Shown here in pieces: positions 1,425 through 31,145 of a stretch of DNA of 51,049 nt. Made by a program: the position numbers and the translations under genes. Source of the DNA: Chrysochromulina tobinii (taxonomy: Eukaryota). The stretch is taken from positions 1 through 51,049 of the forward strand of contig JWZX01003175.1 in assembly GCA_001275005.1 (NCBI GenBank), read 5' to 3'. Within the stretch, counting starts at the first letter, position 1, and every line of letters starts with the position of its first letter. Below the pieces are notes generated by a model, which saw only the letters and a program-made list of their open reading frames with translations, was not told the DNA's origin and did no database searches.

Positions 1425-4400
1425 TCAGGCGCCCTCGAGCGCCTCGATCGCTGTCTTCACTGCGGACACAACCTTCGACGCCTCCGCCTCGTCCCGTGGG
1501 CCATCGCGGCGCCACCGATCGTCGTCGAGGTGGCGCGCTGCATTCGCCCAAATGCGGAGCGAGTGCAGCCGATCTTTCAGGTCGGTCCGCATGCCACACT
1601 CGCGACGCCAATAGTTGATGCGCTCCTCAAAGCCCTCGGGCGCCAACGCCGCCCTTCCGGCATAGATGGCGTCGAGTCGAGACATCACGCTGCTGAACGC
1701 GAGCAGCATGTTGTCCTTGATGCCCTTGTGCGCATCGGAGCCCTTGCGCATCTCACGCACCTGCAGCGAGAGCGGCGTGGGCACGTAGCATGCCGCCGAG
1801 CTCGCGGGCTGCTCCGAGCTTGAAAGCACCGAGCCGTCGAGCGCGCCGCGGCCGGTGCCAGTGCTCCCATCGTCATCAGCCAGGCTCGTCAGCGTTGCCA
1901 GCGCGGTGGCTACCGTGAGCCTCTTCCGCACACTGCCGTGGCACAAACCCGACGCAGCAGACCGGACGACATCCTTGATCGCCACCGCCACGTGCGGCGG
2001 CCAGCCAGCCTCGGCATCGGCGAGCTTCACGGCATCGATGTCGGGGAAATCGAGCTCGAATGACTCCTCGCAATTGTCAATCATGTTGAGAGGCGATCGG
2101 CCAGTGAATGCTACAAGCAGTGTGATGCCCAGCGCCCAGCCATCGGTCGCTGACGAATACTCGCGTCCCTGGACGACCCCCGGGTCGAGATACCCGCGGG
2201 TCAGGTAGAGCGCATTCGACGCGCTCTTCATCTTCGATGCCTCGGGGTCGGCATCCATCTTGGCGAAGCCCGTGTCTGCGAGGTAGGCGTTGAGCTCGTC
2301 GTCGAGCAGAATGTTCTCCGGCTTGAAGTCGCGATGGACGACGGCGCCCTTGCCGCCAGGCACCGGCGTGTGCAGATAGAGCAGCGCGTCGGTCGCCTGC
2401 TGCAGGATGCGCAGGCGCTGGTGCCAAATCAGAGGGCTCAGCGACGCACCGAGGCCGAGGCGGCGCAGGTGCTCGGGGTCGGCCTCTTTTGGCCACAGCC
2501 GATCGGCGAAGCTGCCGCCGCGCATCAGCGGGAAGACGAGGCACGGCGCCTCGTGCTCAAGATAGTAGCCGAGCAGCGGCAGCAGGTGTGGGTGGCTGCA
2601 CTGCTGCAGCACATTCACCTCGCGCTGCAGATCGGCGAGATCGTGCACGCCCGACTTGGCGCGCTTGACGGCGACGGGCTTGTGGCGCAGCCACAGCGGC
2701 AGGCCCGCGGGCGGCAGCGACGGCAGCGCATCCGCGGTGAAGACGCGGCCGTAGCCGCCGCTGCCGATGAGCCTCTGCTCTCCAAAGCCGTCCGTCGCCG
2801 CCGTAAGCTCGGCGAGGGTGAGGGCGACGGCCGCAGGCGGCGCCGAGGGAGCCTCCGGGGCCACCGATGCTGGGTCCTCTTCTGCGGATGCTGAGCCTGC
2901 GGCAGGAGGCGACTGTGTGACCTCCAGCAGTGACAGCTTCGACAGGCTGGCTTGCATCATCTCCGACGCGTGCTTGCGACGCAGCTTCTGGCTCTCCTGC
3001 TTGCGCTTCTTGTGCAAGCGCTCGCGCATCGCCCTCGCCTCCGCCAACACACCCTCGCTCGCGCGCGCGTGGTGCTCCTCGATCGCACCAATCAGGCCCT
3101 CGTACTGCGAAGCCGCCATGGCCACACGCAGCGCCTCGTCAGCGGTGGCAGAAGGAGCGGGACCCACGACGCCCTCGTCGCCAGCTGGCACCGCCACCTC
3201 GGCGCTGCCACTCGCGGCCGCTGACGCACTCGTTAATGGCGCTCTCGCCTTGCTCGCCCCTGTCGGCTTGGCTTTGGCTTTCTTGCTCGCTTTCTTCTTC
3301 GGCGCCTGCTGCTTGTGCGCCCCCTCCGCCTCCTCCTCAGCCAGCAGAGCCGCAGCGGCAAGCTCAGCTGCCCGCTCGGCTGCCGCACGCTCCGCAATCG
3401 ACACCGGAGTGGCCGCAGCGATGGTCGCAGGTGGGTGCGTGCGTGCGAAGCGCCTGTAGCGCAGGAACGTTGCGATGGCGGTGTGGCCTTGGGCCTCTGC
3501 AACATCGAGGGCTGTGCCATTAGGCGATCGAAAGTCAGTGCGTGCGCCAGCATGCACGAGCAGCTTGACGATGTCGATCGAGCCCGCGAGACAAGCAGCG
3601 ATCAAAGGCGTGACGCCGTCGCTGGCTGCCTGGTCGACGGCGGCGTGGGCGGCGAGCAGCAGCTGCACGCAGTCGCCGTGGCCTTTGATGCAGGCGGCGT
3701 ACAGAGGCGTGGCGCCGTCGCTGGCTGCCTGGTCGACGACGGCGTGGGCGGCGAGCAGCTGCTGCACGCAGTCGCCGTGGCCTTTGATGCAGGCGGCGCT
3801 CAGAGGCGAGTTGCCGTTGCTGGCTGCCTTGTCGACGGCGGCGTGGGCGGCGAGCAGCAGATGCAAGCAGCTTCCGTGGCCTTTGATGCAGGCGGCGTAC
3901 AGAGGCGTGTCGCCGTCGCGGTCTGCCTGGTCGACGGCGGCGTGGGCGGCGAGCAGCAGCTGTACGCAGTCGCCGTCGCCTCTGTCGCAGGCGACGATCA
4001 GAGGCGTGGCGCCGTTGCGGTCTGCCTGGTCGACGATGGCGTGGGCGGCGAGCAGCAGCTGCACGCAGTCGCCGTGGCCTCTGTCGCAGGCGACGAGCAA
4101 AGGCGTGGCGCCGTCGCTGGCTGCCTGGTCGACGGCGGCGTGGGCGGCGAGCAGCAGCTGCACGCAGTCGCCGTGGCCTCCGTCGCAGGCAACGTACAGA
4201 GGCGTGGCGCCGTTGCGAGCTGCCTGGTCGACGATAGCGTGGGCGGCGAGCAGCAGCTGCACGCAGTCGCCGTGGCCTCTGTCACAGGCGGCGTACAGAG
4301 GCGTGGCGCCGTTGCGGTCTGCGTGGTCGACGATGGCGTGGGCGGCGAGCAGCAGCTGCACGCAGTCGCCGTGACCTCTGTCACAGGCGGCGTACAGAGG

Positions 4401-4904
4401 CGTGGCGCCGTTGCTGGCTGCCTGGTCGACGACGGCATGGGCGGCGAGCAGCAGCTGTACGCAGTCGCCGTCGCCTCTGTCGCAGGCGACGATCAGAGGC
4501 GTGATGCCGTTGCTGGCTGCCTGGTCGACGGCGGCGTGGGCGGCGAGCAGCAGCTGCACGCAGTCGCCGTGGCCTGTGATGCAGGCAACGTACAAAGGCG
4601 TGGCGCCGTCGCTGGCTGCCTGGTCGACGATGGCGTGGGCGGAGAGCAGCAGCTGCACGCAGTCGCCGTGGCCTTTGATGCAGGCGGCGTGCAAAGGCGT
4701 GGCGCCGTCGCTGTCTGCCTGGTCGACGGCGGCGTGGGCGGCGAGCAGCAGCCTCGTGCATTTAGGGTGACCAGTCTCACATGCAATACGCAGGCAAAGG
4801 TGGAGGTGGGCCGCTTCTTTCACGCTGTCGACGAGGCCCACAGCCTTGGCCTCGTCGCCGCGCCGGAGCGCGTCGACGATCGCGTCCAGGGTCACGATGC
4901 TCAT
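1425..4904 (-). CDS. Ankyrin-repeat + IRAK/Pelle(RLK)-like protein kinase + putative DUF4145/HEPN-like C-terminal domain protein (~1159 aa)
   Basis: ATG at 4904 (MSIVTLD); ~13 ankyrin repeats (TPL..AC..GH..CVQLLL); kinase motifs LTLAELTAATDGF..RLIGSGGYGRVF, VAVK, HRDFKPENILLD, DTG (for DFG), TRGYLDP; tail FEERINYW...LKDRLHSLRIWANAARH. Confidence 0.88.
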   Translation of the reverse strand: MSIVTLDAIVDALRRGDEAKAVGLVDSVKEAAHLHLCLRIACETGHPKCTRLLLAAHAAVDQADSDGATPLHAACIKGHGDCVQLLLSAHAIVDQAASDGATPLYVACITGHGDCVQLLLAAHAAVDQAASNGITPLIVACDRGDGDCVQLLLAAHAVVDQAASNGATPLYAACDRGHGDCVQLLLAAHAIVDHADRNGATPLYAACDRGHGDCVQLLLAAHAIVDQAARNGATPLYVACDGGHGDCVQLLLAAHAAVDQAASDGATPLLVACDRGHGDCVQLLLAAHAIVDQADRNGATPLIVACDRGDGDCVQLLLAAHAAVDQADRDGDTPLYAACIKGHGSCLHLLLAAHAAVDKAASNGNSPLSAACIKGHGDCVQQLLAAHAVVDQAASDGATPLYAACIKGHGDCVQLLLAAHAAVDQAASDGVTPLIAACLAGSIDIVKLLVHAGARTDFRSPNGTALDVAEAQGHTAIATFLRYRRFARTHPPATIAAATPVSIAERAAAERAAELAAAALLAEEEAEGAHKQQAPKKKASKKAKAKPTGASKARAPLTSASAAASGSAEVAVPAGDEGVVGPAPSATADEALRVAMAASQYEGLIGAIEEHHARASEGVLAEARAMRERLHKKRKQESQKLRRKHASEMMQASLSKLSLLEVTQSPPAAGSASAEEDPASVAPEAPSAPPAAVALTLAELTAATDGFGEQRLIGSGGYGRVFTADALPSLPPAGLPLWLRHKPVAVKRAKSGVHDLADLQREVNVLQQCSHPHLLPLLGYYLEHEAPCLVFPLMRGGSFADRLWPKEADPEHLRRLGLGASLSPLIWHQRLRILQQATDALLYLHTPVPGGKGAVVHRDFKPENILLDDELNAYLADTGFAKMDADPEASKMKSASNALYLTRGYLDPGVVQGREYSSATDGWALGITLLVAFTGRSPLNMIDNCEESFELDFPDIDAVKLADAEAGWPPHVAVAIKDVVRSAASGLCHGSVRKRLTVATALATLTSLADDDGSTGTGRGALDGSVLSSSEQPASSAACYVPTPLSLQVREMRKGSDAHKGIKDNMLLAFSSVMSRLDAIYAGRAALAPEGFEERINYWRRECGMRTDLKDRLHSLRIWANAARHLDDDRWRRDGPRDEAEASKVVSAVKTAIEALEGA
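3614..4750 (-). repeat. 99-bp coding tandem array (11 near-identical ankyrin repeats)
   Basis: Unit xTPLxxACxxGHGDCVQLLLAAHAxVDQAxxxG recurs every 33 codons with near-identical DNA. Confidence 0.95.
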
Positions 4905-5227: not shown

Positions 5228-8200
5228 TCACACCCCAAAGTCCGACGCATTGACGAGCGTCTGAGCTTCGCGCGGAGCCTCTCCGTCCGTACGGAGCCTC
5301 TCTGTGCGCACGATCCACGCGGGAGCGGCGCGTGCGGCCGGGGAGTCGAACAGCGAGGACACCGACACAATGAGCCCTCGCTTGTCGTCGTCATCCTCCT
5401 CCTCCGCTGCCTGCGCCGGCGCCGGCTCCTTCACCTCCTCCTCCTCCTTCCCGTACGCCACACGTCCGTTGCCGCCGCCGGCCTGCTGATTGCCGCTGAT
5501 TGCTGTTGATTGCTGCTTGGCTCGCAGCTTGGTCCGTTGGCGGCGCGCCTTGGCTTCCTCGAGCAGATCGAGCATCGCCCCACTCCCTTCGCCATTGGTG
5601 ACGATCGGCATCGGCTCGAGGCCGTAGCGTTCGTTGTGAGCCTGCTGCACTGCGCGCCGGCGGTCGGTCTCGTCAATGGCGCGCTTCATCGAGCCGGTCA
5701 CGCGGTCGGCAAAGAGCAGCGCCGTGCCACGTACGTGGCGCGCTGCACGCCCGATGGTCTGGATCAACGCTGTACTTGAGCGTAGGAAGCCCTCCTTGTC
5801 CGCGTCGAGCACCGCCACCAAGCTCACCTGATGAGGCGGCCCAGCTCTCAGTGCGATCTCAGAGGCGATCAGCGTCACTCAGCGTCACTCAGCCGCATTC
5901 CAAGGGTAATCAGCGTGGTAATCAGCGCCCATCAGCGCCCATTAGAGGCCATCAGAGGTCGTCAGAGGCCATCAGAGGCCATCAGCGCACCTCCGGCAAG
6001 TCAAGCCCCTCCCGTAGCAAGTTGACGCCCACGAGCACGCTCAGCTCGCCATTCCGCAGCGAGCGCAGCAGACGCACACGCTCGAGCGGTTTCGTGCCGG
6101 AGTGCATGTGCGCCGCCGCTAGCCCATGCTCGCGCAGTGTCGAGGCAAGCCGCTCCGCACTCTCGCGGGTGAGCACTGTGGCGAGCGTACGTTCGCCTAA
6201 TTTGGCACGCAGGGACGCCTCTGCGATGAGCTCGTCGAGCTGTGCCGCGCGTGGGCGGATCTGCAGAGGCGAGCAGAACTCATCAGAGGTCATCAGAGGC
6301 CATCAGAGGCCATCAGAGGCCATCATGAGGTCATCATAGGCCATCAGAGGCCATCAGAGGCCATCAGAGGCCATCAGAGGCTCATATGCGAGCGCACCTC
6401 CACCTGTGGGTCCACAATGTGCGTTGGTCGCAGCACAAGCTCTGGTAGCGACCCCATCGCCTCCTCACCCCCCCTCCTCCCCCTCCTCCCCCCCCGCCTC
6501 GCTCGCGCCGTACCGAGCGCCCCTTGCATGCGCGAGCTCGAACGCTCCTGGCGTGGCCGACACAAAGACCGCCGACGGTACGCGAGCCCAAAACTCATCG
6601 TGCGTGAGGGGGCGGTTATCGAGCGCCGAGGGCAGCCGGAAGCCATGCTCGACGAGGCAGAGCTTTCGGCGCCGATCGGCCGGGTACATGGCGCGTAGCT
6701 GCAGGGGCGCGCGACTCATCAGCAATTCGGAGATCGGGTTGGGGATGGGGGGGTGGGATGGGGGGGTGGGATGGGGGGTTGGGATGGGAGTTTGGGGTTG
6801 GGGTTGAGGTTGGGGTTGGGGTTGGGGTTGAGGTTGGGGTTGGGTCAGGTATTGGGGGGGATTGTCCATCAGCGTCACTCGAGCCGCACCTGTGGCAGCG
6901 CCACGTGTGACTCGTCCACAAGCAACAGATACTCCGGGGGGAAGTAGTCCAGCAAGGTCAGGGGGGCGGCACCGGCCGGTCGACCAGCGAGATGACGCGA
7001 GTAATTCTCGAGGCCCTGGGCCAAGCAGAGGCAACCAGAGGCTAATTAGACGCAATCTAGTTGGCCATCAGCGCCCCATCAGAGGCAATCAGAGGCAATC
7101 ATAAGTCACTCGGAGTGAGCGCCCCATCAAAAGTCACGGGCATCCCACCTTGCAGTATCCCTTGTGAACGAAATCCTCAAGGTCGGCACACACCCTCCCC
7201 TCAAGACGAGTCGCCTCGGCCAGCCGGCCATCCGCCCGGAGCGAGGCAAGACGAGCATCCAGCTCCGCCTTGACGTCGTGCAGCACACGCGCGCGCTCGC
7301 TCTCGGGCAGCACGTGGTGCGAGGCGGGGAAGAGGACGAGCTCGTCGGCGGCGCTTGAGACGGCGCTTGGGACGGCGCCGGCGCCGTCCGCCGCCGCAGT
7401 CGCTTCCGCCACGGCAAGCACCGCTGCGATTTCGTCTTCCTCGTCGATCAGAGCGCTTGTGGGGGCTTCGGAGATTGGATCTCGCATGATGGCCATTACC
7501 TGGACGGCGCCGCCCCCCGCCACCTCCGCCATCGGCGCTACCTGTGGAGACGTGTCCGCCTGCTGTGAATGGTCCGCTGTCCGTGAATGGTCCGCTGCCC
7601 GTGAATGGTCCGCTGTCCGTGAATGGTCCGCTGGCTGTGAATGGTCCGCTTGCTGGGGGAACTGCAATGCGAGCCGCACACGCACCGCCACCTCGGAGGC
7701 GACCGGATGCACACGCAGCTCATAGTCCGTGCTACCGCCACCTCCCACCGCCGCCAGGCTATACTCGCCGCGCTCGGGCTTAGCACGCGTGTCGGCCACA
7801 GGTTCATACTGCAAGCGCTGCAGCGCCGCGAGTAAGTGCGTGAGGGACGGGAGCGTGTGGCCCACACGCAGCGGAAGGGCTGCCTCCTGGTACTGGTCAG
7901 GGACTCCCAGCCCGTAGATGCAAGAGACTGAGGCGACGACCACCTGTGGGGCGATACGGGGCGTGCTCAGAGAGGCCATCAGAGAGGTCATCAGAGAGGT
8001 CGTCAGAGAGGTCATCAGATGAGAGGTCATCAGAGGAGCGGTCATCAGAGAAGGATCACGCAGAGCACTCACCACGTCAGTGCGCGAGAGCAGCGCCGCG
8101 GTGGCGGCATGACGAAGCCGGTCGATGTCTTCATTCACCGAGGCCGTCTTCTGCAAGTACACGTCAGCGGTGGGCTGATAGGACTCTGGCCTGTAGTAGT

Positions 8201-9047
8201 CATAATAGGACACGAAGTACTCGACGGCGTTGTGGGGAAAGAAGCCGCGCAGCTCCGCCCAGAGCTGAGCCGCGAGCACCTGCATGCAATGAGAGAGGCC
8301 ATCAGTGGCCGTCAGAGGCCATCCTCAGGTACGGGGCGCCGTGATGAGCACCTTGTTGGGCGCAAGGACGAGGGTCGGCCTGCCGGTGGTCGCAATGAGC
8401 TGTGCCATCGCAAAGGTCTTCCCCGTGCCCGTAGCCCCTTTGAGGACAAGACGCCGTGGACCCACCTTGGGCGCCGCGAGGGACGTAGCAAGGCGCTCGA
8501 CCACTCCCCGCTGCTCAGCAGTCGGTGGCCAGATCGAGCGGAGATCAAACGACCGATGGGCGCGAAGGTCGTCTCGCCCAACGAAGCTCTCTACCGCCTC
8601 TCGCTTCGCCTCTCGCGCCGCCTCGACGACACCCGCGTCGACCTCTTCGAAGGCCGCGAGCGTCTCCGCAGATAGGGACGGCACCGACGACTTGAGCGAC
8701 GCTGTCGGCGACGGCGTGAGCAAAGGGGCTGGCGTGGGCGGCAGCAACGGCGACAGCAACGGCGCGTCGGTGAGGCCACCCATGATGTCGTCGAGACTCG
8801 AGGGCGCCGTCGTGGGCGCCGGCTCGCGCGGCCGCCTCGTCAGTTGAATCTCATGCAGGAAGCGCAGCGCCGTGCTGAGCGTCGCCCGCAGCGCTGCCTC
8901 GTCGGCGGCCTCCTCGGTGTCCAGCTGGTGCCCGCGGATCCCGAGCCGGTGCGCCATCAACCGGCGCTGCCGCTTGGCGCTCGCCGCAATGGCACCCGCG
9001 GTCGTCGAGGCCGTCGTCCAGCGTGGGTCTGTCGGCAGCCGCAGGAC
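5228..9047 (-). CDS. uvrB: UvrB-like excinuclease helicase portion (exons 9047-8352, 8279-8073, 7943-7149, 7015-6890, 6698-6398, 6260-5991, 5827-5228); probably fused to upstream UvrC portion; one +1 frameshift near 6468-6474
   Basis: GATGTGKT Walker [57 protein letters not shown] Walker [60 protein letters not shown]; motifs rejoin exactly across phase-0 GT-AG introns. Confidence 0.93.
5828..5990 (-). repeat. Intron containing 10-bp GATGGCCTCT-type tandem repeat
   Basis: GT..AG boundaries restore DLPE|VSLV; ccatcagagg units on + strand near 5930-5985. Confidence 0.85.
6261..6397 (-). repeat. Intron composed largely of (GATGGCCTCT)n
   Basis: About ten ccatcagagg-like units at 6281-6381; boundaries restore DPQVE|IRP. 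Confidence 0.9.
6740..6860 (+). repeat. Intronic G-rich tract with (TTGGGG)n-like repeat
   Basis: ttggggttggggttgaggttggggttgggg... at 6792-6844 inside intron 6699-6889. Confidence 0.85.
7565..7650 (-). repeat. 18-bp coding repeat x5 (ADHSxx) inserted in UvrB
   Basis: gtgaatggtccgct core repeated with 18-bp period. Confidence 0.9.
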
Positions 9048-9130
9048 CTGTGTGACCAGCAGCGGGGGGGGGGTGGTGAGTATGGAGGAGGAGGGGGAGG
9101 GGGGCGTGGGTCTGTCCGCAGCCGCAGCAC

Positions 9131-10666
9131 CGGCGGCAGAGGGCGTGAGAGAGGAATGCGACCGGTAGAGGGCGTCGTGCCGAGCGCGCCCTGGCTCGCC
9201 TTGGCGCGTTGCAGGCCGGCCACGATGGAGGTTGCAAGGCGCCTCCCGATGCCCGGTACGCGCCGAAGCGCCTCCACATCCGCCTCACAAAGGGCGGCAT
9301 ACGTCCCGAAATGGTCAAACAGCGCCGCACGCCGCGTCGCTCCGATGCCACTCGTCCCGCCGAGGGCCGTGAGCGCCGACTCGAGCGCAGCCGCCTCTCG
9401 GAGCGCCCGGTGGCCTTCGAGCGCCGTGGCGTGCGCCTCGTCCCGCGCGCGGCGCAGCAGCAGCAGTGGCTTCGATTCGGCGCCACCGGCCGGTGAGCGC
9501 CACGGCATGCCGCTACCAATGCCGCTACCAACGGCGCTACCAACGGCGCTACCAACGGCGGACGTTGCGTCCGCACTCGCCTCGTGGTCGATTGCATGCT
9601 TCACACTCGCCTCGTGGTCGATTGCATGCTTCACACTCGCCTCGTGGTCGGCGTTCTCGGGGGTGAGCCACAGCAAGCTTGCCGACTCGACGCCATCACC
9701 GCCACCGCCCTGATTTCTGGCGGCCGCGCCAATCGTGTGGAATCCATACACGGTCTCGTTCCCCTTTGCCAGAGCGATTAAGGGCACGTGGCGAGCCTCA
9801 GTGGTCGCCAGCGCCGAGCGTGCGGCGTGGAGCTGCCCTTTGCCGCCGTCGATGAGGATGAGATGCGGCAGCGGACGGGACGTTGGCGAGCGTGACCATG
9901 CCGTGGATGCCGCCCCATCATCATCCTCAAGCTCGCCGCCCCCCGTACCCCCCACCTTCCCACACCCGACCTGCGGTGCTGGCGCGAAACGGCGCCGAAG
10001 GCCTTCGACAAGTGCCGCGCAGTCGTCGGCCGCGGGTGCCCTCTGGATCGGCCAGCGCTGGTGGCGAGCAGGCGCGGGCTCGCCGTCGACGAGCACGGCG
10101 CTCGAGACCACAGTGTACTCGCCGCCAAAGTGCGAAACGTCGAACGCCTCGAGCAGCCGCGGCGGGCCGTCGAGCCCGAGCCAAGCTTGCACCGCCTCGA
10201 GCGCCTCGACACGGCGACGCGCGGCGAGAGCACCGGCGAGCATGGCGCGCACGGCCGCACCGCTGAGGCCGAGGCGCACTGGAGCGTCCACTGCGCCGGC
10301 ACGCTCGTTGAGTGCGACGGGCAGCACCGCTCTCGTGGCCTCCGCGCTGCGGAGCCGCCGCAGACATTTGGCCGCGAGCCTCGCCGAGTCTGCTGAAAAT
10401 GGGCCGTGAACAGTGCCGTCCAGAGCGCCACCGGATGACCGGCGCGTGCGCACAATTCCATCCTCATCTACGGTCAAGTAGAGCTCCTCCGGCAGATCCG
10501 TCAATCTCGGGTTGGCAGCCTCGAGCTCGGCTTGTAAGATGAGAAGCTCAGCACTCTGCGCGTGCTGCGCATGGTGAATCTGGCGCACCGCGGACGTGGC
10601 GCGAGGAACCGAAAAACGTAGGCGCATCGCGAGGCCCGTGCTCGCAATGCAGAGCACAGCGAGCAT
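9131..10666 (-). CDS. uvrC: UvrC-like portion: RNase H-like 5'-incision endonuclease + helix-hairpin-helix domain, with N-terminal targeting-like presequence; exon 1 of a probable UvrC-UvrB fusion
   Basis: ATG 10666 MLAVLCIASTGLAMRLRFS; EAFDVSH, LPHLILIDGGKGQL, IALAKG, RARDEAH, GIGATRRAALFDHFG, LRRVPGIGRRLA; no GIY-YIG motif visible. Confidence 0.88.
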
Positions 10667-10926: not shown

Positions 10927-12774
10927 ATGAGTCGGCGGCAATCCGTTGCGGGAAGCAATCTGGGCTTCTCTCGCGAGTTGGCCAGTCTCTTTTTTGAGGC
11001 AGACGTGGAGGGCGACAGAGAGGTCACGTTTGGCGAGTTTTCGAGTCGGATAGTGCCAACCAAGATGCTCGCAACCTCTTCCAAGGAAGAAATCAGAGAG
11101 CTCTTCGACAGCATCGACACGGACAAGTCTGGTAAGATCTCCATGAACGAGCTCTTCCTGTGGACACTCAAGTACGCGCAAGAGGAAACGGGTACCGGGA
11201 TAGATTCCGTCTTCCGTCGGTACGACAAATCGGGCAGGGGCGCGTTGACCATCACTGAATTCTGCACAGCTGCCGAGGAGCTCGGCTTTGGAGCAGCTGC
11301 GCACGACGTCTTCATAGAGCTCGATCCGGATGGTTCGGGGCAGGTCAGCTACTCAGAGATGAAGATAATGCTCGGACAGCGCTTGCTTTCGCCCATCGCC
11401 AAGCGGTTCATACGAGCAATGGCGTTCGACGCGGCGCAAAGAGCGGTGGAAGTGGATACTACAGGTTGGACATTGCGCCCCGAGAGCAAAGAGTCCATCC
11501 GAGAGCAAGTGCTCGAGAAGCTCAAGAGTTGCGCTCCTGCTCGAGCGAGCGACCTTTACCGCGCCATGAGCGGCGGTACCAACTTTATCCTCGGACGACA
11601 CAACTTCCACTTGGCCATGTCGCGAATTGGGATGCCGCCGAATCAGGAGGCGCTCGAAAAGGAACTTTACGACGACATAGACGGCGACGGCAGCGGCATC
11701 ATTGGCGACAGCGAATTTGTGGCTTGGCTGGCCGGTGGCGCCAGTCGCAGAGCGCGTGCTCGGAAGCTGACACTGCGCACGGGCCTTCTCGCGAATGCTC
11801 CCAAGTGGACGGGCGAGTGGGACGCAAACCGTCTGCGCCACGCGCTGCAGCTCGCGTTGATCCGAGCGGCCATCGCGCCCATCGATCTCATCCGCGGGTA
11901 CGCAGGCGATGACGCGAGCTTCTCAAAACAAGAGTTCCTCTCGATGCTCAAGCGACTCGTCAACGACCCGGGTGATCTATGGGAGACGCTCCGCGACGTG
12001 GTGATCGAGCTCTTCAACACGATCGCGGGTAGTAATAAGTCGGTCGACGTGACGGAATTTCAGTCGTGGCTGCAGATGGGATGGATGGAGGCCAAGCGGG
12101 ACGCAACGGGCTCCACGATCGAGGGCACGGGCCCCCTGGACGAACGGGTGGTCGAGACGGCGATCGAGCATTCCGCAGCGGCCGCCCTGAAGGTGGCGTC
12201 TTCGGCAACGACGGCCGTGCAGCGCCTGCAGCGGAGCGCCGTCTCGAGCACCCGCAGTGCACCCACTCTCATCGGCAAGCGCCATGTTGAGCAGCTCAAC
12301 GCGTTGATGCAGCCATTGCTGCCTCGCACGTGGCCCGCAAAAGAGGGCGACCATTCGTTTGCAAGGCGGTGGGCCTACCGGCCCAAAGCCTGCCTCGTTG
12401 ACAAAAGGCCGGTCCCCGTTCCGGATCCGCCGTTACCGCCGTGGCGGCTCACGCGCGCACGGATTGAAGGTCGCCACTTTCTCGTGCGCGAAGAATCCGA
12501 GGGCGTGCGGCCGCTGCGACGGGGCGAAGCCGCCCGCAAGCGAGCCGTCTGCTTTTACCAGGAGCACCGGCCGGCGCCATCCTGGGCGCCATCCCCGATG
12601 CATCGCACACCTCCATCGCGGCCGCTTGGGCAGCCAGGCGTTTTCGACGCTCGGACCTCGCTCCCGTTTGCCGGCGTGTCGAGGACGGTGATGACCGTGC
12701 AGGAAGTCGTGATGAAGGACCTCGCTGACGTGCGCGTGGCTGATTTCCTCGGGAGGACAAAGAACACGCGTTAG
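10927..12774 (+). CDS. Multi-EF-hand calcium-binding protein
   Basis: ATG 10927 (MSRRQSVAG); EF loops DVEGDREVTFGEF, DTDKSGKISMNEL, DKSGRGALTITEF, DPDGSGQVSYSEM, DGDGSGIIGDSEF. Confidence 0.88.
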   Translation: MSRRQSVAGSNLGFSRELASLFFEADVEGDREVTFGEFSSRIVPTKMLATSSKEEIRELFDSIDTDKSGKISMNELFLWTLKYAQEETGTGIDSVFRRYDKSGRGALTITEFCTAAEELGFGAAAHDVFIELDPDGSGQVSYSEMKIMLGQRLLSPIAKRFIRAMAFDAAQRAVEVDTTGWTLRPESKESIREQVLEKLKSCAPARASDLYRAMSGGTNFILGRHNFHLAMSRIGMPPNQEALEKELYDDIDGDGSGIIGDSEFVAWLAGGASRRARARKLTLRTGLLANAPKWTGEWDANRLRHALQLALIRAAIAPIDLIRGYAGDDASFSKQEFLSMLKRLVNDPGDLWETLRDVVIELFNTIAGSNKSVDVTEFQSWLQMGWMEAKRDATGSTIEGTGPLDERVVETAIEHSAAAALKVASSATTAVQRLQRSAVSSTRSAPTLIGKRHVEQLNALMQPLLPRTWPAKEGDHSFARRWAYRPKACLVDKRPVPVPDPPLPPWRLTRARIEGRHFLVREESEGVRPLRRGEAARKRAVCFYQEHRPAPSWAPSPMHRTPPSRPLGQPGVFDARTSLPFAGVSRTVMTVQEVVMKDLADVRVADFLGRTKNTR

Positions 12775-19378: not shown

Positions 19379-21562
19379 TCAGAGCATCAGCCCAATGAGC
19401 CAGAAGGCGAGCGTGGCCGAAAGCGCGGAGACGAGCATGGATGCCGGTAAGCCGACCAGCACAAAGTCGGCCGCGTTGACGTACGCTCGCCCGTAATCAT
19501 CCTCAGCGAGCAGTGAGTTGACGTTTGGGAAGCTGGACATGGGCAACGCCATGGCGGCGGAGCACGTCAGAGTACAGCAAAAGACGATCTGGGCGGGAGC
19601 GCCCGCGTGCGCGCCAATCGACGCGATGAGCGGCATCGTCACAATCGCGGCGACCGTGTGAGAGACAAACGACGTGATGACCAGCATCGCCCCAACGAGC
19701 TCCGCGGTGAGCAGCCACACACTGGTCCCACCGAGTGACAGCTGCGCTTTGAGCAGCGAATGCGAAGCGAGGTGGAGCAGACCTGACTTGGAGACGGCGA
19801 GCCCGAGGGCATTGCCCCCTCCGATGAGGGCGAGCAAGTGCCAGTTCAGCCCGTTGAAATCGTCCTTCGTGAGGAAGCCAGAGCCAAACGAGCCGACCAC
19901 GAGCGCCAACCCAACAACCGCAGGGTCGCCAAACGTGTCGTGCAGCGGCGGGAACGAGAGCGTCGCCCAGAGCACAGTGGTCGCCATAACACAGCAGAGC
20001 ATTGACAGCTCCCGCCGGCCGAGCTTCTGCTTCTTCTCGATGGAGATGCGCGGCAGCTGGGCGCAATCAAACGGACGCAGCAGCAGCAGCAGCAGGCCGT
20101 GCACAAGGAGCAGCCCAATTTCCGCGATTGGGAGAGCCACGAGGAACCAGGTACCAAAGCCGATGGTGGCTCCCCTGTACGCGAGCGCCTGCAGCGCCAC
20201 CGCGTTCTGCGGCGACGCGATGGGCGTGAGCATGCCGCCGAGGTTGCACGAGAAAGCGAGTCCGAGCACCAGAGCCTTGGCGTAGCGCGAGCCGCCGGGC
20301 ATCTCGCGAAGGAGAGGAGTGAGCACGTTGAGCAGCAGGATGGGCGCGGTCACGTTGGAGACGCACATGGACGTCGCGAGACCGAGCTGCATGATCACCA
20401 GCATGAAGGCGAGCGGGTAGCGGCCCAGCCACTCGCTCAGCGCCGACGCAAGACGGAGCTCTAGCTGGCAGCGACTCACCACGGCCGCGGCGACGAGGCC
20501 AGCGAGCACGAGCAAGATGACTGGAGACCCGAACATGGAGGAGAGGAGCAGTTTGGCGGCGTCCGCGGCCTCCATGGCCGGCGTGGAGCCGGAATCGTCG
20601 GTGGTGTCGTGCTGCACGTCCCCGTGCTTGCCCGTGTGCTCCTCGGGCTCCGCGGGCATCACGCGACCCAGAACGACCAGTACGGGCACGAGCAAGGACG
20701 TCACAAAGTACGGCAGCGCCTCGGTGAGCCAGAGCGTGATGATGCTTAAGAGAACGCACGCGCATCGCTTCTCGAACTCGTTATTGCCATCCGGGTCCAG
20801 CAACGGCGTCAGCAGCAAGACGGCGCACGCGACCAGCACCGAGGCCACCACACCCCAAACACGCGGTGTCGAGGAGACCGGAGCTTGCGGGGCGCACTGC
20901 TTGCGACCCTCCGCCTTCATGCTGAGCACCGCCTCGGCGTTGGAGCACAGCTGCTCGAGCGCCACCATCCAGTCCTCGATCTCGCTCAGCCCGGTGTAGA
21001 AGGGCTCGGCGGACAGCCGCTTCAGAATCTGTGGTTGCCGTGGCGTGCCTCCGATCAGCTTGTCGAGCTTCTTCACAATCTTGCGGATACCCTCGTGGTT
21101 CACGAGGACGAACGAGCGCAGCCTGGCGCACGCGCAGTACGTACTTGTTACCAGCTGCTGATCGACTGCGCGCTCCGACGCGTTGTATGACTGCGTTGTG
21201 GGGCTGGCTTTGTATACGCTGAATGCATTCTGCTGCAATAGTACCTCCATGCTCTTCCTGATTTTATCATGCTGCTCTTTGACGTGTGTATTCATTCGGA
21301 CCACATCGGCGTCGAGAACCTCGTTGAAGGAGTGCTCTATCTCCGCCAGCTTCGAGGCGCTCATGGTCATCAAGGGCATCCCAGCGGAATCGTCACGCGA
21401 TGCCCTTGATGACCTCGGTGACGATTCGGCTATCGAGACGTCGTCCTCGGTCTTACTCGACGGAATCTGCTTCATGATGCGCTTCATCTTCTCGTAGCTC
21501 AAGTAGTGCTGACGCCATTCGGCGATCGCCCGGATGTCGACGACCTGGCCGAACTTGACCAT
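19379..21562 (-). CDS. SPX-domain SLC13/DASS-type low-affinity phosphate transporter (Pho87/Pho90/Pho91-like)
   Basis: MVKFG...EWRQHYLSYEKMKR and NHEGIRKIVKKLDK (SPX); LWLTEALPYFVTSL, SMCVSNVTAP, CNLGGMLTPIASPQN, AMALPMSSFPN; many TM helices. Confidence 0.93.
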   Translation of the reverse strand: MVKFGQVVDIRAIAEWRQHYLSYEKMKRIMKQIPSSKTEDDVSIAESSPRSSRASRDDSAGMPLMTMSASKLAEIEHSFNEVLDADVVRMNTHVKEQHDKIRKSMEVLLQQNAFSVYKASPTTQSYNASERAVDQQLVTSTYCACARLRSFVLVNHEGIRKIVKKLDKLIGGTPRQPQILKRLSAEPFYTGLSEIEDWMVALEQLCSNAEAVLSMKAEGRKQCAPQAPVSSTPRVWGVVASVLVACAVLLLTPLLDPDGNNEFEKRCACVLLSIITLWLTEALPYFVTSLLVPVLVVLGRVMPAEPEEHTGKHGDVQHDTTDDSGSTPAMEAADAAKLLLSSMFGSPVILLVLAGLVAAAVVSRCQLELRLASALSEWLGRYPLAFMLVIMQLGLATSMCVSNVTAPILLLNVLTPLLREMPGGSRYAKALVLGLAFSCNLGGMLTPIASPQNAVALQALAYRGATIGFGTWFLVALPIAEIGLLLVHGLLLLLLRPFDCAQLPRISIEKKQKLGRRELSMLCCVMATTVLWATLSFPPLHDTFGDPAVVGLALVVGSFGSGFLTKDDFNGLNWHLLALIGGGNALGLAVSKSGLLHLASHSLLKAQLSLGGTSVWLLTAELVGAMLVITSFVSHTVAAIVTMPLIASIGAHAGAPAQIVFCCTLTCSAAMALPMSSFPNVNSLLAEDDYGRAYVNAADFVLVGLPASMLVSALSATLAFWLIGLML

Positions 21563-21806
21563 GGCGGCCGCCGCGAGGTACGCCGCGCCAGCGGCAGGCA
21601 GGAAGCGCCTGCAACAAGCGCCAGTATCCCAAGGCTGCGCGGGAGATAAATCGATCTCCACGTGCCTCGTCGAAATAAGCAAGCACTGCGTCAATGCAGC
21701 AGATTTCATCATACATTCTAGGGTGCGGCACACGATTCGGACGTCCCCCTCCGGGAGTTCACGCGCGCACGCTGTGAACTTTTTGCTTCCTTCCTGCTGG
21801 AGCAGA

Positions 21807-23699
21807 ATGAAAGAATCGCTAGAAGCCGCACCGGCAGCGGCGGCCACAACGCACCCTCTCGAGTCCTTCCTCACCTGCACGGTGTGCAACCAGTACTTTG
21901 ACGACCCGCACGTTCTGCCGTGCTACCATCGTTTTTGCAAGCGCTGCCTCAGCACGAGCGGGCGCTGCGCCCTCTGCCGGCAGCCCTATTATCCAAAGGA
22001 CGTCGGCCAGCGGGACACGGTGCTCAGCAGCACCGTGTCGCGCTTCTGCGAGGTGCTCGCGGCATCGCGTGTGAGTTCGAAGCTCGTCGAGCCGGTGCCA
22101 TCCAAGGCTGCGTCACCCTCTGCCGCTGCGGCCGTGCCGCCGCCAGCCCTATCCGTCGTTCCCACCCCCGTCGTTGCCGACAGAGATCACCGCGAAGTGC
22201 TCGAGGCGCGGCTGCTGTTCATCGAGAAACGCCTGCGCGTGACCGCTGCGCTCATCGGTGCGCAGCACGGCCCCGGCGGGCTCCAGGGCACATTGGGGTT
22301 TTGCAAGGTGCCCCCGTTGCCCCTCGAGGATGCGGCACGGACGGCAGCAGCAGCAGCAGCAACAGCAGCGTCAGCGTCATTTGCGCCACCAGCAGAGGAG
22401 GTACGCGCGAACGCGCCAGGCAGGCCCTCGGAAGGTGCTCGCAGCCCCAAGCAGAGCCGCCGCGAGGTAGAGGTGGAGGTGGAGGCGGAGGCGGAGGCGG
22501 AGGCGGAGGCGGAGGATGCGGCGCCTTCCGTAGCAGCAGCAGCGCATCCTCCAAAGCGGCGGTGCAGCCTGCGCGGGCACGATGTGGGTACTCCTCCGCT
22601 CGGTGAGGCCGAGGTGGCCGAGGCGGATGCGCTGTGTTGGGCGTCGTCTGCGCTGCCAGCGCTGCCTGCAATACCGGCTCGTGTGCCGTCAGCGCCGCCG
22701 CTGCCGCCGTCTGGCACGAGGCAGCAGCAGGAGGAGGAGGAGCCGCCACCGCCGCCGCCGCTGCCGCCGCCGCCGCCACTGCCGCCGCCGCTGCCAGACG
22801 CGGAGGTGGAGGGGGAGATGAAGGCGGAGGCGGAGGAGGACGAGGACGATGAGGAACCTGCTCCATCCGAGATCCGCTCGCCGTGCATCTGCACATCGGG
22901 CCTCGACGCCGAGCAGGAGCGCCATGTGGAGCGGCTCGTGCGTCAGCTTGGTGGCAGCGTGGCCAAGCAGTGGAAGCCAGCGGTGACGCATCTGGTGGCC
23001 GCCGAGAAGCAGGCAGGCTCGAATGCCGCGCGCGCTGCCCTGAGCGCTCGAGGCGGCGCGCCCGATGGACGCACACGATGCGCCGCGCGCACCCAAAAGT
23101 ATTTACGAGCCGTGCTCACGGGCCAGTGGGTCGTCCGGTTCGGCTGGGTACTCTCGACTCAACGCGCGGGCTTCTACGTTGATGAGCAACGGTTCGAGTT
23201 CGCCGGCGACATGTCGACCCAGATGGCCAATGGCATGGGTCGTGGCGCGCCACGTAACGGGCGGCTTCGCAAGCTGCAAGGCAAGCCAGCCCTCCTTGCG
23301 AACCATCAGTACGTGCTGCACGGGCCAATCCGGGAGCTCAAGGAGAAGGACTTGCACGAGCTGCTCGGCCTGATGGGCGCCAAACCGCTGGCCGAGCTGC
23401 CCAACACCCTCGAGAGCTTCCCTGCTCTCGCCGCCGCCTCCGCCTCCCGCCGCCGCTCAAACGGTCGCGCAAGCTCGGGCGGGTTGCTCGCGAGTAAGGT
23501 GCTCGTGTTCTGCGAGAGCCATCCCGATGAGCATGAGGCCGAGTTCCGGCAGCGCTGCCTCAAGCACCAGATCAGGCCGCTCAAGCCGCAGTGGGTCTTC
23601 GACACCATCTCGTACCAAGCGCCTCGACCGGACGTCGAGGCGTACGGCTTCACTGAGTCGGTGCTCGAGAGGGCGGGCCTGGTCGCCACGGACCGTTAG
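21807..23699 (+). CDS. RING finger + tandem BRCT protein (BRCA1/BARD1-like)
   Basis: ATG 21807; C3HC4 RING CTVC..PCYHRFCKRC..CALCR; BRCT1 CTSGL..LGGSV..VTHLV..RTQKYLRAVLTGQWVVRFGWV; BRCT2 ..LMGAK..KPQWVFDTIS. Confidence 0.88.
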   Translation: MKESLEAAPAAAATTHPLESFLTCTVCNQYFDDPHVLPCYHRFCKRCLSTSGRCALCRQPYYPKDVGQRDTVLSSTVSRFCEVLAASRVSSKLVEPVPSKAASPSAAAAVPPPALSVVPTPVVADRDHREVLEARLLFIEKRLRVTAALIGAQHGPGGLQGTLGFCKVPPLPLEDAARTAAAAAATAASASFAPPAEEVRANAPGRPSEGARSPKQSRREVEVEVEAEAEAEAEAEDAAPSVAAAAHPPKRRCSLRGHDVGTPPLGEAEVAEADALCWASSALPALPAIPARVPSAPPLPPSGTRQQQEEEEPPPPPPLPPPPPLPPPLPDAEVEGEMKAEAEEDEDDEEPAPSEIRSPCICTSGLDAEQERHVERLVRQLGGSVAKQWKPAVTHLVAAEKQAGSNAARAALSARGGAPDGRTRCAARTQKYLRAVLTGQWVVRFGWVLSTQRAGFYVDEQRFEFAGDMSTQMANGMGRGAPRNGRLRKLQGKPALLANHQYVLHGPIRELKEKDLHELLGLMGAKPLAELPNTLESFPALAAASASRRRSNGRASSGGLLASKVLVFCESHPDEHEAEFRQRCLKHQIRPLKPQWVFDTISYQAPRPDVEAYGFTESVLERAGLVATDR

Positions 23700-23835: not shown

Positions 23836-24665
23836 ATGCTCTCTGCGTCCTTCATGCCTCGCACCGCCGCGCCGGCGTTCGCTACGTCTGCTCTGTCTCG
23901 CTCGACGCTCCGCATGGACTCGCGCGACGACCTGGCTGATCGCATCAACAAGGCGGTGAGAGCATCGCCCACACTCCTGCCGATGCTTGCCCGCTTTCTA
24001 AATCCTGAGCGCGCATCCGCGAGCGCCATCACCACTGACTCGAGCTCGCATCCCGTGCCATGCACGCGCAGGTCCCCGTGCTGTCGGACACCGTCGCAAA
24101 TCCGACCTACCTCACCACCGCCGGCAACTTTGATCCGAACGCCTTCGTGCAGTCCCTGCCAGGCATCTCCGGCCCGCTTGGCTTCTTCGACCCCGCGGGC
24201 TTTTGCGCGAGCAGCAATGGCGCCAACGGCGCGGCGACCGAAGGCAAGGTGCGCTTCTACCGCGAGGTGGAGGTGAAGCACGCCCGTGTTGCAATGCTCG
24301 CGGCCTTCGGCTTCCCCGTCGCTGAGCAATGGCATCCGCTCTTCGCCACCGACGACGCGCCGTCCTTCTCGGCCTTCCAGCAGACGCCGCTGCAGACCTT
24401 TTGGCCCGTGGTGGTCGCTGTCATCGCCGTCATCGAGATCTTCTCCATCTTCCCGGCCTTCGAGGACCCCAACATCGAGGGCTGGGCCATCAAGTCGACG
24501 CACACCGCGGGCGACTTCGGCTTCGATCCGCTCGGTCTCAAGCCCAAGGAGCCCAAGGAGCTGATGGAGATGCAGACCAAGGAGCTCAACAACGGGCGCC
24601 TCGCCATGATCGCAATTGCGGGCATGGTGGTGCAGGAGGCCGTCACCGGCCAGAAGCTCTTCTGA
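23836..24665 (+). CDS. Lhcx: Light-harvesting chlorophyll a/c-fucoxanthin protein, Lhcx/LI818-like (exons 23836-23955, 24072-24665)
   Basis: PLGFFDPAGF, FYREVEVKHARVAMLA, AEQWHPLF, GDFGFDPLGLKP, TKELNNGRLAMIA; phase-0 GT-AG intron joins presequence exon. Confidence 0.92.
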
Positions 24666-30420: not shown

Positions 30421-30971
30421 AGCTGAGCAGGAGCGGGCGAGCGCGGCTACGGAAGGTTTCGTCAACCAATTTGTTCTCCTCTGTTTCGTAACGGATGAGC
30501 ACAGTAGACGCGAAAAACGAGATGCAGATGGCCGGACGATGGTCGCCAGAGGCCGGCCGACCAAGCATCCAGGGCGGAGGACGAGGCAGTGAATCCTCGA
30601 TACCCGGCGGGAGTACGCTTGCGGATACACCGATCCATCGCGCTCCGCGGAAAGACCTCGCCCTCACAGTGAACTGCACGCTCCGTGTGCCACGCGCAGT
30701 TTTCGGCGCGGCGGCTGAGCCATCTTGGTCGCCGTCGAAACAGGAGACAGACTACAGCCGAAATGGTTACGGCCGTTTTGACCCGGTGCTGGGCACGGCT
30801 CATAACGCACACGCATTGCCACTTGCTGCGCCTAACGACTCCTTCGCTGAGAAGCCGCGCGATTTCGAGTCACGTCATTTGTCGTGGCAGTGCAAGCCGA
30901 GCATCGAGGGTGGCATCTTTGGCAGTGGAGCATCGCAGAGTGATGCGGGCCGCCGCGGTAGTGGCGGCGGC

Positions 30972-31095
30972 ATGAGCGACCCTTTTCTCGGCCGGCTGCA
31001 GCAGGCCGAGGAGCGCGACCAGATGCAAGCACAGCAGATCTATGCGATGCAGCAGCAGCAGCAGCAGTACGCAATGCAACAACAGCGGCAGCAGC

Positions 31096-31145
<50 letters not shown>

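What the first reader, a model, noticed from the sequence alone, without database searches (positions are those of the whole stretch)
5228..10666. Spliced single-gene UvrC-UvrB fusion with an organelle-type presequence in a eukaryote
Seen: removing an 83-bp phase-0 GT-AG intron (9130-9048) joins the UvrC ORF (..SRPLPP) in frame to [10 protein letters not shown]...MAHRLG.. and on into the UvrB Walker A exon; six further phase-0 introns restore UvrB motifs exactly, giving ~1509 aa once one extra G is discounted. N-terminus is a hydrophobic stretch then Arg/Ser/Ala-rich. Established: UvrABC is the prokaryotic NER system with separate subunits; eukaryotic nuclei use XP proteins. Inference: a bacteria-derived, domesticated, organelle-targeted (plastid or mitochondrial) excision-repair enzyme in one polypeptide. 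No UvrA is in this window.
Basis: partly seen in the sequence, partly recalled or inferred. Interest (0 to 1): 0.85.

Follow-up and report, generated by a model that had tools for sequence, protein, structure and literature searches.

The report
One-cut UvrC-UvrB fusion in algae
An alga's nuclear genome carries one spliced gene that joins only the rear cutting half of the bacterial repair nuclease UvrC to the damage-checking helicase UvrB; relatives occur in several algal groups, and the protein likely repairs chloroplast DNA with a single cut and without the usual partner UvrA.

Summary
The fusion is real. RNA contigs show all seven GT-AG introns spliced, including the 83-nt intron joining the halves (one sample). 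Two other assemblies lack the extra G; in one, the model reads as an open 1509-aa frame. The same UvrC-then-UvrB order occurs in Prymnesium, Aureococcus, Norrisiella, Cymbomonas and unnamed relatives, several as intron-free ORFs.

Only the 5'-cutting RNase H domain and HhH pair of UvrC remain, catalytic triad intact. The 3'-cutting GIY-YIG domain is a vestige, both UvrB-UvrC handshake motifs are gone, and UvrB's UvrA-binding surface has eroded while its ATPase motifs and damage hairpin are kept. The UvrB half groups with photosynthetic cyanobacteria; an alphaproteobacterial origin is rejected.

Best reading (inferred): a plastid, UvrA-independent, single-incision helicase-nuclease. Location, absence of UvrA and activity are untested. 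The scan earlier found an opposite-order UvrB-UvrC fusion in a diatom and a lone red-algal UvrB on other DNA. Ten paper searches found no description. New variant; interest 0.7.

The parts
10595..10666 (-). Putative organelle leader, residues 1-24: short hydrophobic stretch, then Arg/Ser/Ala-rich, no acidic residue before 40
   Evidence: similar short leaders in P0133 and P0001; not run through a targeting predictor
10352..10552 (-). Vestige of the UvrC N-terminal half, residues 39-105: last GIY-YIG helix, beta-sheet motif and GPF helix; the conserved Glu of the helix aligns to Gln45
   Evidence: profile-profile score 23.5, E 0.006, probability only 6%, above 60 of 60 column shuffles; low-confidence region in the model
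9398..10219 (-). UvrC C-terminal RNase H-type nuclease (5' incision), residues 150-423, triad D176, D273, H412 intact, with two low-complexity insertions
   Evidence: Pfam PF08459 E 2.6e-26; alignment to 2nrt; model matches 8b0q at Z 22.9, rmsd 2.7, 172 aligned
9209..9355 (-). (HhH)2 DNA-binding pair, residues 438-486
   Evidence: Pfam PF14520 E 2.1e-10
9131..10666 (-). Exon 1
9048..9130 (-). Intron 1, 83 nt, GT-AG, phase 0; its removal joins the UvrC and UvrB halves. Its first 27 nt repeat the first 27 nt of exon 2 (25 of 27 identical)
   Evidence: RNA joint in X2 and X4; read-through tail differs in frame in the 93% relative P0163
8352..9047 (-). Exon 2: linker of about 170 residues, conserved at its start, then UvrB start with Walker A at 8438-8415
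8073..8279 (-). Exon 3: UvrB beta-hairpin with its aromatic base residues kept
7149..7943 (-). Exon 4: UvrB domain 2, diverged and with insertions, UvrA-contact positions lost; start of domain 1b
6890..7015 (-). Exon 5: DESH Walker B motif
6398..6698 (-). Exon 6; the window has one extra G in the run 6474-6468 that two other assemblies lack
5991..6260 (-). Exon 7: helicase C-terminal domain
   Evidence: Pfam PF00271
5228..5827 (-). Exon 8: motif VI, PF12344, then a low-complexity tail with no UVR (UvrC-binding) motif; stop at 5230-5228

Best explanation
This is one spliced nuclear gene for a 1509-residue protein that joins the 5'-cutting half of UvrC to a UvrB helicase, likely imported into the chloroplast, where it would act without UvrA as a one-cut repair nuclease. 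Shown: the splice, the open frame, the domain content, intact nuclease triad, ATPase motifs and hairpin, loss of GIY-YIG and of both UVR motifs, erosion of the UvrA-binding face, and a UvrB half that groups with photosynthetic cyanobacteria. Inferred: (1) the leader sends it to the plastid; (2) the covalent linker replaces the UVR-UVR handshake that bacteria need to bring UvrC to UvrB; (3) with no UvrA loader, UvrB loads where DNA is already open or nicked (transcription or replication bubbles, stalled forks, a lesion already cut on its 3' side), uses ATP and its hairpin to lock at the lesion, and the tethered RNase H domain cuts once on the 5' side; (4) a polymerase and ligase, or another nuclease, finish the patch. 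This mirrors what bacterial UvrBC does without UvrA on bubble or 3'-pre-cut substrates.
For: Splice and frame. Order conserved in four named algal lineages and unnamed relatives; P0013, P0133, P0002 and P0010 run from UvrC into UvrB as single called ORFs. A full-length UvrC profile matches the 9 UvrC-then-UvrB proteins tested only from position 357 onward; it finds GIY-YIG in the opposite-order fusion P0024 and a weak UVR match only in the two unfused algal UvrBs, so loss of the handshake goes with fusion. Domain 2 identity to cyanobacteria is 0.24 against 0.55-0.65 elsewhere; between bacteria it is 0.44 against 0.60-0.70. UvrA contacts named in PMC3458569: R183 is Arg in 133 of 133 bacterial and 3 of 11 algal rows, E215 is Glu in 107 of 133 and 0 of 11, while the DNA-binding R190 is kept in 10 of 11. 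Tree. Of 60 listed strain variants 36 are synonymous, none a stop. PMC5814901 section 28: UvrBC binds lesions without UvrA and cuts only substrates with a bubble or a prior 3' incision.
Against: No genome is held, so absence of UvrA and of a separate 3' nuclease in this alga is untested. Domain 2 still folds in the Aureococcus model (block pLDDT 76-88) and could have co-evolved with an algal UvrA; the algal domain-2 columns are insertion-rich, so residue assignments are approximate. PMC5814901 states there is no evidence that UvrBC alone excises damage, and in D. radiodurans the GIY-YIG point mutant is impaired in both cuts (PMC10085695). Leaders of P0051, P0149 and P0139 are not clearly hydrophobic (starts may be mis-called). 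The UvrC half is tied to cyanobacteria only at SH-aLRT 88. Algal branches are long and three have odd composition. The key splice is seen in one sample.
Confidence: 0.5

Rival explanations
1. The fusion is one part of a complete plastid excision pathway: a separately encoded UvrA loads it and a separate GIY-YIG nuclease (Cho-like, or a second UvrC-type gene) makes the 3' cut first.
For: The hairpin and all ATPase motifs are intact; domain 2 is predicted folded; in E. coli and T. maritima the 5' cut follows the 3' cut (PMC10085695); another algal fusion, P0024, keeps GIY-YIG.
Against: UvrA-contact residues are lost across 11 algal rows while the DNA-contact residue is kept; the gene faces an EF-hand gene 260 bp upstream and the six frames of the window hold no further UvrC match.
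Confidence: 0.22
2. It no longer reads lesions but is a structure-specific fork or flap nuclease for organelle replication restart and recombination, working like Hef, FANCM or XPF-ERCC1 (helicase fold plus one nuclease plus HhH pair; recalled, not tested).
For: Single nuclease plus (HhH)2 plus SF2 motor; the same UvrC domain makes a damage-independent 5' cut (PMC7835731 section 6); the Prymnesium and Aureococcus forms add an HRDC domain and have altered hairpin bases.
Against: The window's own hairpin keeps the aromatic residues of bacterial UvrB; UvrBC did not favour a single/double-strand junction on tightropes (PMC5814901).
Confidence: 0.2
3. The same enzyme works in the mitochondrion, or in both organelles, not only the plastid.
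For: The leader is short and Arg/Ser/Ala-rich, as mitochondrial leaders also are; origin does not fix location.
Against: Hydrophobic start typical of a signal peptide; cyanobacterial sister group and rejection of an alphaproteobacterial clade, p-AU 0.00056; every named carrier is a plastid-bearing alga.
Confidence: 0.2
4. Two adjacent genes, or a main intron-retaining message giving a 569-residue UvrC-only product that stops at 8957, with UvrB starting at the overlapping ATG 8958.
For: An open frame 10666-8957 and an ATG at 8958 exist; intron 1 was joined in only 2 of 6 RNA runs; no contig spans the whole gene.
Against: A spliced contig runs from the HhH region to 8664, about 290 nt past that ATG; the read-through tail is in another frame in P0163; relatives are single ORFs with the linker start conserved.
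Confidence: 0.04

Closest known systems
Bacterial UvrABC excinuclease (UvrB: 1d9z, 3uwx, 6o8e; UvrC C-terminal half: 2nrt, 8b0q)
   Same: UvrB motor, hairpin and fold (TM 0.89 over the target for the Aureococcus model); RNase H triad and HhH pair.
   Different: One chain; no GIY-YIG, Cys-rich, UVR or RNase H1 parts of UvrC; no UvrB C-terminal UVR; eroded UvrA-binding face; spliced nuclear gene with a leader.
UvrA-independent UvrBC activity of E. coli (PMC5814901; Zou 1997 and Moolenaar 1998 as cited there and in PMC7835731, not read)
   Same: UvrB plus the UvrC C-terminal nuclease acting without UvrA; single 5' cut on pre-opened or pre-cut DNA.
   Different: There a side activity of two full-length subunits held by the UVR handshake; here the architecture seems reduced to that activity and made covalent.
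Opposite-order algal UvrB-UvrC fusion (P0024 cluster; earlier scan finding e1-7547540 in a diatom)
   Same: UvrB and UvrC in one chain behind a leader; cyanobacterial affinity; degraded domain 2; no UVR family listed for P0024.
   Different: Order UvrB then UvrC; keeps GIY-YIG and lacks HhH; lies outside the UvrC-then-UvrB clade in both trees, so a separate fusion event.
Unfused algal UvrB (Cladosiphon P0070, P0021; Cyanidioschyzon in earlier scan notes)
   Same: Same algal UvrB clade, same domain-2 erosion.
   Different: No nuclease half; keep a weak C-terminal UVR match.
Hef / FANCM / XPF-ERCC1 helicase-nucleases (recalled)
   Same: SF2 motor, one nuclease and an HhH pair in one machine.
   Different: Their nuclease is ERCC4-type, here RNase H-type; analogy only. 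The Hef family hit covers only the HhH or helicase stretch.
Plant 'uvrB/C' (AT2G03390; PMC4824065)
   Same: Nuclear gene, plastid-targeted, name suggests excision repair.
   Different: Per the paper it carries only the UVR motif and a YccV domain; no UvrB motor and no UvrC nuclease. Unrelated to this gene.

Membership tests
UvrB | SF2 ATPase motifs (Walker A, DESH, motif VI) | tested here: met
UvrB | Damage-sensing beta-hairpin with aromatic base | tested here: met
   residues from 765 match B. caldotenax UvrB
UvrB | Domain 2 with UvrA-binding residues | tested here: not met
   No PF17757 hit; own profile E 1.6; positions 183 and 215 changed in the window. The fold itself is predicted kept in a relative
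UvrB | C-terminal UVR motif that binds UvrC | tested here: not met
   No PF02151 and no match to the UVR stretch of the UvrC profile
UvrB | Whole-protein score above the curated cut-off | tested here: inconclusive
   Relatives P0001 and P0133 score 721-733 bits against a cut-off of 743; the joined window protein was not scanned
UvrC | C-terminal RNase H nuclease with D-D-H triad | tested here: met
   D176, D273, H412
UvrC | (HhH)2 DNA-binding pair | tested here: met
UvrC | N-terminal GIY-YIG nuclease for the 3' cut | tested here: not met
   No match to profile positions 1-350; only a weak vestige with Gln at the conserved Glu
UvrC | Central UVR motif and inactive RNase H1 platform | tested here: not met
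UvrABC excinuclease | UvrA present and required for loading | not testable with these tools
   No whole genome held; none in the window
UvrABC excinuclease | Dual incision around a lesion | not testable with these tools
   Needs biochemistry; the domain content predicts one cut
Plastid-targeted protein of endosymbiotic origin | Sister to photosynthetic cyanobacteria | tested here: met
   UvrB half SH-aLRT 98, sister genomes carry psaA/psaB, 7 of 7; UvrC half weaker, 88
Plastid-targeted protein of endosymbiotic origin | Bipartite signal plus transit peptide | tested here: inconclusive
   Composition fits; no predictor or localisation
Hef/FANCM/XPF | ERCC4-type nuclease domain | tested here: not met
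   The nuclease is UvrC RNase H-type by sequence and fold

The most novel reading that the evidence does not exclude
Algal plastids run a UvrA-free repair pathway that evolution built twice by fusing UvrB to UvrC in opposite orders. This lineage went furthest: it dropped the 3' nuclease and turned the excinuclease into a self-loading, single-incision helicase-nuclease, a bacterial-parts counterpart of XPF/Hef, shared by green algae, chlorarachniophytes, haptophytes and pelagophytes through gene flow between plastid lineages.
Probability: 0.4. Interest if true: 0.85.

Novelty: new variant of a known kind. Interest (0 to 1): 0.7.

Why it matters
A review of plant organelle repair says nucleotide excision repair seems absent from organelles and that flowering plants encode no UvrA, UvrB or UvrC (PMC6981420, passages). 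Here is an expressed, conserved, cyanobacteria-derived UvrC-UvrB gene in four algal lineages, two of them bloom-forming surface plankton. It gives a single protein with which to test two open questions: whether plastids excise bulky lesions, and whether UvrB and UvrC can process damage without UvrA, which PMC5814901 left unexplained. The natural deletion of the 3' nuclease and of both handshake motifs is an experiment that bacterial work has only approached with mutants. The fusion is also a rare shared character for tracing gene flow among green, chlorarachniophyte, haptophyte and pelagophyte plastids.

Tried and rejected
Pseudogene: rejected; the frameshift is absent from L139 and L140 and listed variants are mostly synonymous (the tables were cut, so 60 of a larger set). 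A hidden small intron at the G run: the GT-AG pairs there that restore frame end in purine runs and are not needed. A lost GIY-YIG exon nearby: none in six frames. Bacterial contamination: rejected by spliced introns and eukaryotic neighbours. Fusion by read-through of a cyanobacterial operon: uvrB and uvrC lie 0.4 to 2.4 Mb apart in 5 of 5 sampled photosynthetic genomes where both sit on one contig. RNA contigs did not cover the G run. Plasmid search: 0 of 237 matching records cover 80% of P0133. Viral contigs: 5 loci with UvrC-like matches, not followed. First metagenome scan found nothing. Protein atlas: only bacterial UvrB or UvrC clusters under 0.9. The model of residues 1-130 was low-confidence and the fold search covered only 152-503, so no fold can be named or excluded there. 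The HRDC-type N-termini did not align to the GIY-YIG vestige (score 14.8, 3 of 60 shuffles as high). Three genomes I first labelled photosynthetic lacked psaA/psaB and fell outside the sister clade. I did not search for algal UvrA: bacterial hits would crowd the capped lists. Host identity stays unproven: the LHC search gave chlorophyll a/c-type and other algal hits without fixing the group. Supplements of PMC5462543, which may list such a protein among plastid-targeted families, could not be read.


Full report
Observation. The gene lies on the minus strand from 10666 to 5228. Eight exons and seven phase-0 GT-AG introns give 4531 nt, one base too many. RNA contigs from four runs (three samples) show a joint at each intron. 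The key one, skipping 83 nt at 9130-9048, stands in X2 and X4, which are one sample; the X2 contig runs from the HhH region to 8664, past both the unspliced stop at 8957 and the ATG at 8958. These contigs differ from the window by 1-5%, so they are strains or close kin, and the tool warns that joints laid below 95% likeness can come from other organisms. In four further runs intron 1 was not joined; two RNA contigs end inside the 27 nt that intron 1 shares with exon 2 and cannot decide, and two runs of unknown kind keep the introns. The extra base is an assembly slip or minor variant: of 4 loci found with a degenerate pattern, 2 are this gene, 99.98% identical with one gap in the G run at 6474-6468, and L140 reads as 1509 aa without a stop. 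In the 93% relative P0163 the read-through past exon 1 falls into another frame, as expected of an intron.

Context. The window is eukaryotic and photosynthetic: light-harvesting protein, LPA1-like protein, RPA70, RPN6. A haptophyte host is my inference from the intron repeats (recalled) and from freshwater plankton holders; it was not established. No whole genome is held.

Family. A search for longer relatives of exon 1 returned one protein, a 1455-aa fusion at 44% identity. Searching with it, 6 of the 120 listed proteins carry both the UvrC RNase H and UvrB families, and a seventh is a partial fusion. Named members with the order UvrC then UvrB are Norrisiella sphaerica, Prymnesium parvum, Aureococcus anophagefferens and Cymbomonas tetramitiformis; Prymnesium and Aureococcus add an HRDC domain. 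Several relatives are single called ORFs from UvrC into UvrB. Public names are 'hypothetical', 'type III restriction enzyme' or 'excinuclease B'. One cluster, P0024, has the opposite order. Cladosiphon and P0021 have an unfused UvrB.

Anatomy. Exon 1 holds the RNase H-type nuclease and the HhH pair; the triad D176, D273, H412 aligns with T. maritima UvrC and the model matches 8b0q at Z 22.9, rmsd 2.7, 172 aligned. A profile of 65 full-length bacterial UvrC matches the 9 UvrC-then-UvrB proteins tested only from position 357 of 606, but finds GIY-YIG in P0024 and a weak UVR match in the two unfused UvrBs. Residues 39-105 align weakly to the last GIY-YIG helix, beta motif and GPF helix (score 23.5, probability 6%, above 60 of 60 shuffles), with Gln at the conserved Glu; that this Glu is the catalytic one is recalled, the paper giving E76 for T. 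maritima. The 3' nuclease therefore appears eroded rather than never present. The UvrB half keeps Walker A, hairpin, DESH and motif VI. Domain 2 is the exception: 0.24 identity to cyanobacteria against 0.55-0.65 in the other regions. Of the UvrA contacts named in PMC3458569, R183 is Arg in 133 of 133 bacterial rows and 3 of 11 algal rows, E215 is Glu in 107 of 133 and 0 of 11; the DNA-binding R190 is kept in 128 of 133 and 10 of 11 (9 bacterial rows were dropped because the anchors were not found, and algal columns are approximate). The Aureococcus model still folds domain 2 and matches whole UvrB structures.

Origin. A tree of 47 of 153 UvrB sequences, 501 columns, domain 2 and the truncated P0167 left out, places 10 algal rows sister to 7 cyanobacterial genomes at SH-aLRT 98; all 7 carry psaA/psaB, and 3 others of the phylum that fell elsewhere lack them. 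A faster tree of 138 rows agreed. Forcing the algae together with three alphaproteobacteria is rejected, p-AU 0.00056; the test was run after the tree was seen, alphaproteobacterial sampling is thin and algal branches are long. The UvrC-then-UvrB proteins form one clade in both halves (91 and 99), with P0024 outside, so the two orders are separate fusions. The UvrC half is tied to cyanobacteria only at 88. In 5 of 5 sampled photosynthetic genomes with both genes on one contig they are far apart, so the fusion more likely arose after transfer to the nucleus. PMC5462543 (passages) reports green-derived plastid proteins in ochrophytes and transfer from pelagophytes to haptophytes, which would fit the patchy spread; I did not test this.

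Mechanism. In bacteria GIY-YIG cuts 3', the RNase H domain cuts 5' and also makes a damage-independent 5' cut, and the UVR handshake is needed for both the 3' cut and that extra cut (PMC7835731 section 6). UvrBC finds lesions without UvrA but cuts only DNA with a bubble or a prior 3' incision (PMC5814901 section 28). A chain that has lost the 3' nuclease, both handshake motifs and the UvrA face, yet keeps motor, hairpin and 5' nuclease, is best read as that activity made permanent: load on open or nicked DNA, verify, cut once. I put this at 0.5, a full pathway with separate UvrA and 3' nuclease at 0.22, a lesion-blind fork or flap nuclease at 0.2, and two genes at 0.04. Plastid location I put near 0.75. 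The fusion itself is about 0.95. Against my reading: UvrA absence is untested, excision by UvrBC alone is unshown in that paper, and in D. radiodurans losing the GIY-YIG glutamate impairs both cuts.

Literature. Ten full-text searches listed no paper describing an algal UvrB-UvrC fusion; the library lacks most subscription journals. I saw passages of PMC6981420, PMC10085695, PMC4624840, PMC3458569, PMC4824065, PMC5462543 and bioRxiv 10.1101/2025.10.07.680570, and passages plus one section each of PMC5814901 and PMC7835731. Supplements of PMC5462543 were not readable and may list this family. The plant 'uvrB/C' is only a UVR-motif protein. Earlier notes of this scan report a diatom UvrB-UvrC fusion and a red-algal UvrB, so algal Uvr genes are not new to the scan; this order and the loss of the 3' nuclease were not among the notes returned.

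Verdict. Observation confirmed, interpretation partly supported, new variant of a known kind, interest 0.7.

Noticed in passing
P0024 cluster (9 members): An unnamed 1774-aa fusion in the opposite order, UvrB then UvrC, with GIY-YIG kept and HhH missing; its UvrC groups with photosynthetic cyanobacteria at 94.
   Followed up: partly
window 9130-9104 and 9047-9021: The first 27 nt of intron 1 repeat the first 27 nt of exon 2 (25 of 27), which suggests a recent local duplication at the fusion joint; the relative P0163 differs here.
   Followed up: partly
P0051, P0149, P0314, P0315: A second subfamily; the two full-length members end in an HRDC domain and have changed hairpin bases, and all four share an R-x-W-W motif in the linker that the window's subfamily lacks. 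Whether one alga carries both types is open.
   Followed up: partly
window 5330-5300: A short Pro-x-Trp motif is conserved near the otherwise variable C-terminus in the window, P0001, P0012 and P0133; role unknown.
   Followed up: no
window, all seven introns of this gene: All seven are phase 0, and most carry the same short degenerate tandem repeat, which also occurs near 25580-25815.
   Followed up: no
window 1425-4904 (-): Intronless 1159-aa ankyrin-repeat protein kinase with about a dozen near-identical 99-nt repeats, directly downstream.
   Followed up: no
window 10927-12774 (+): EF-hand protein starting head-to-head 260 bp from the fusion's ATG; a shared promoter is possible.
   Followed up: no
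window 23836-24665 (+): Light-harvesting protein gene with an intron; its true first exon begins at 23836 with a short leader.
   Followed up: partly
window 21534-23699 (+) and 30495-32798 (+): A RING plus BRCT protein and RPA70, both nuclear DNA-repair type, lie in the same window; probably chance.
   Followed up: no
window 19379-21712 (-): SPX-domain anion transporter of the phosphate-sensing type.
   Followed up: no
P0014: Bacterial-type UvrB of 871 aa with a duplicated C-terminal part (two Helicase_C and two PF12344 stretches).
   Followed up: no
L081-L085: Five viral contigs carry UvrC C-terminal-like matches; may be host DNA at prophage edges.
   Followed up: no
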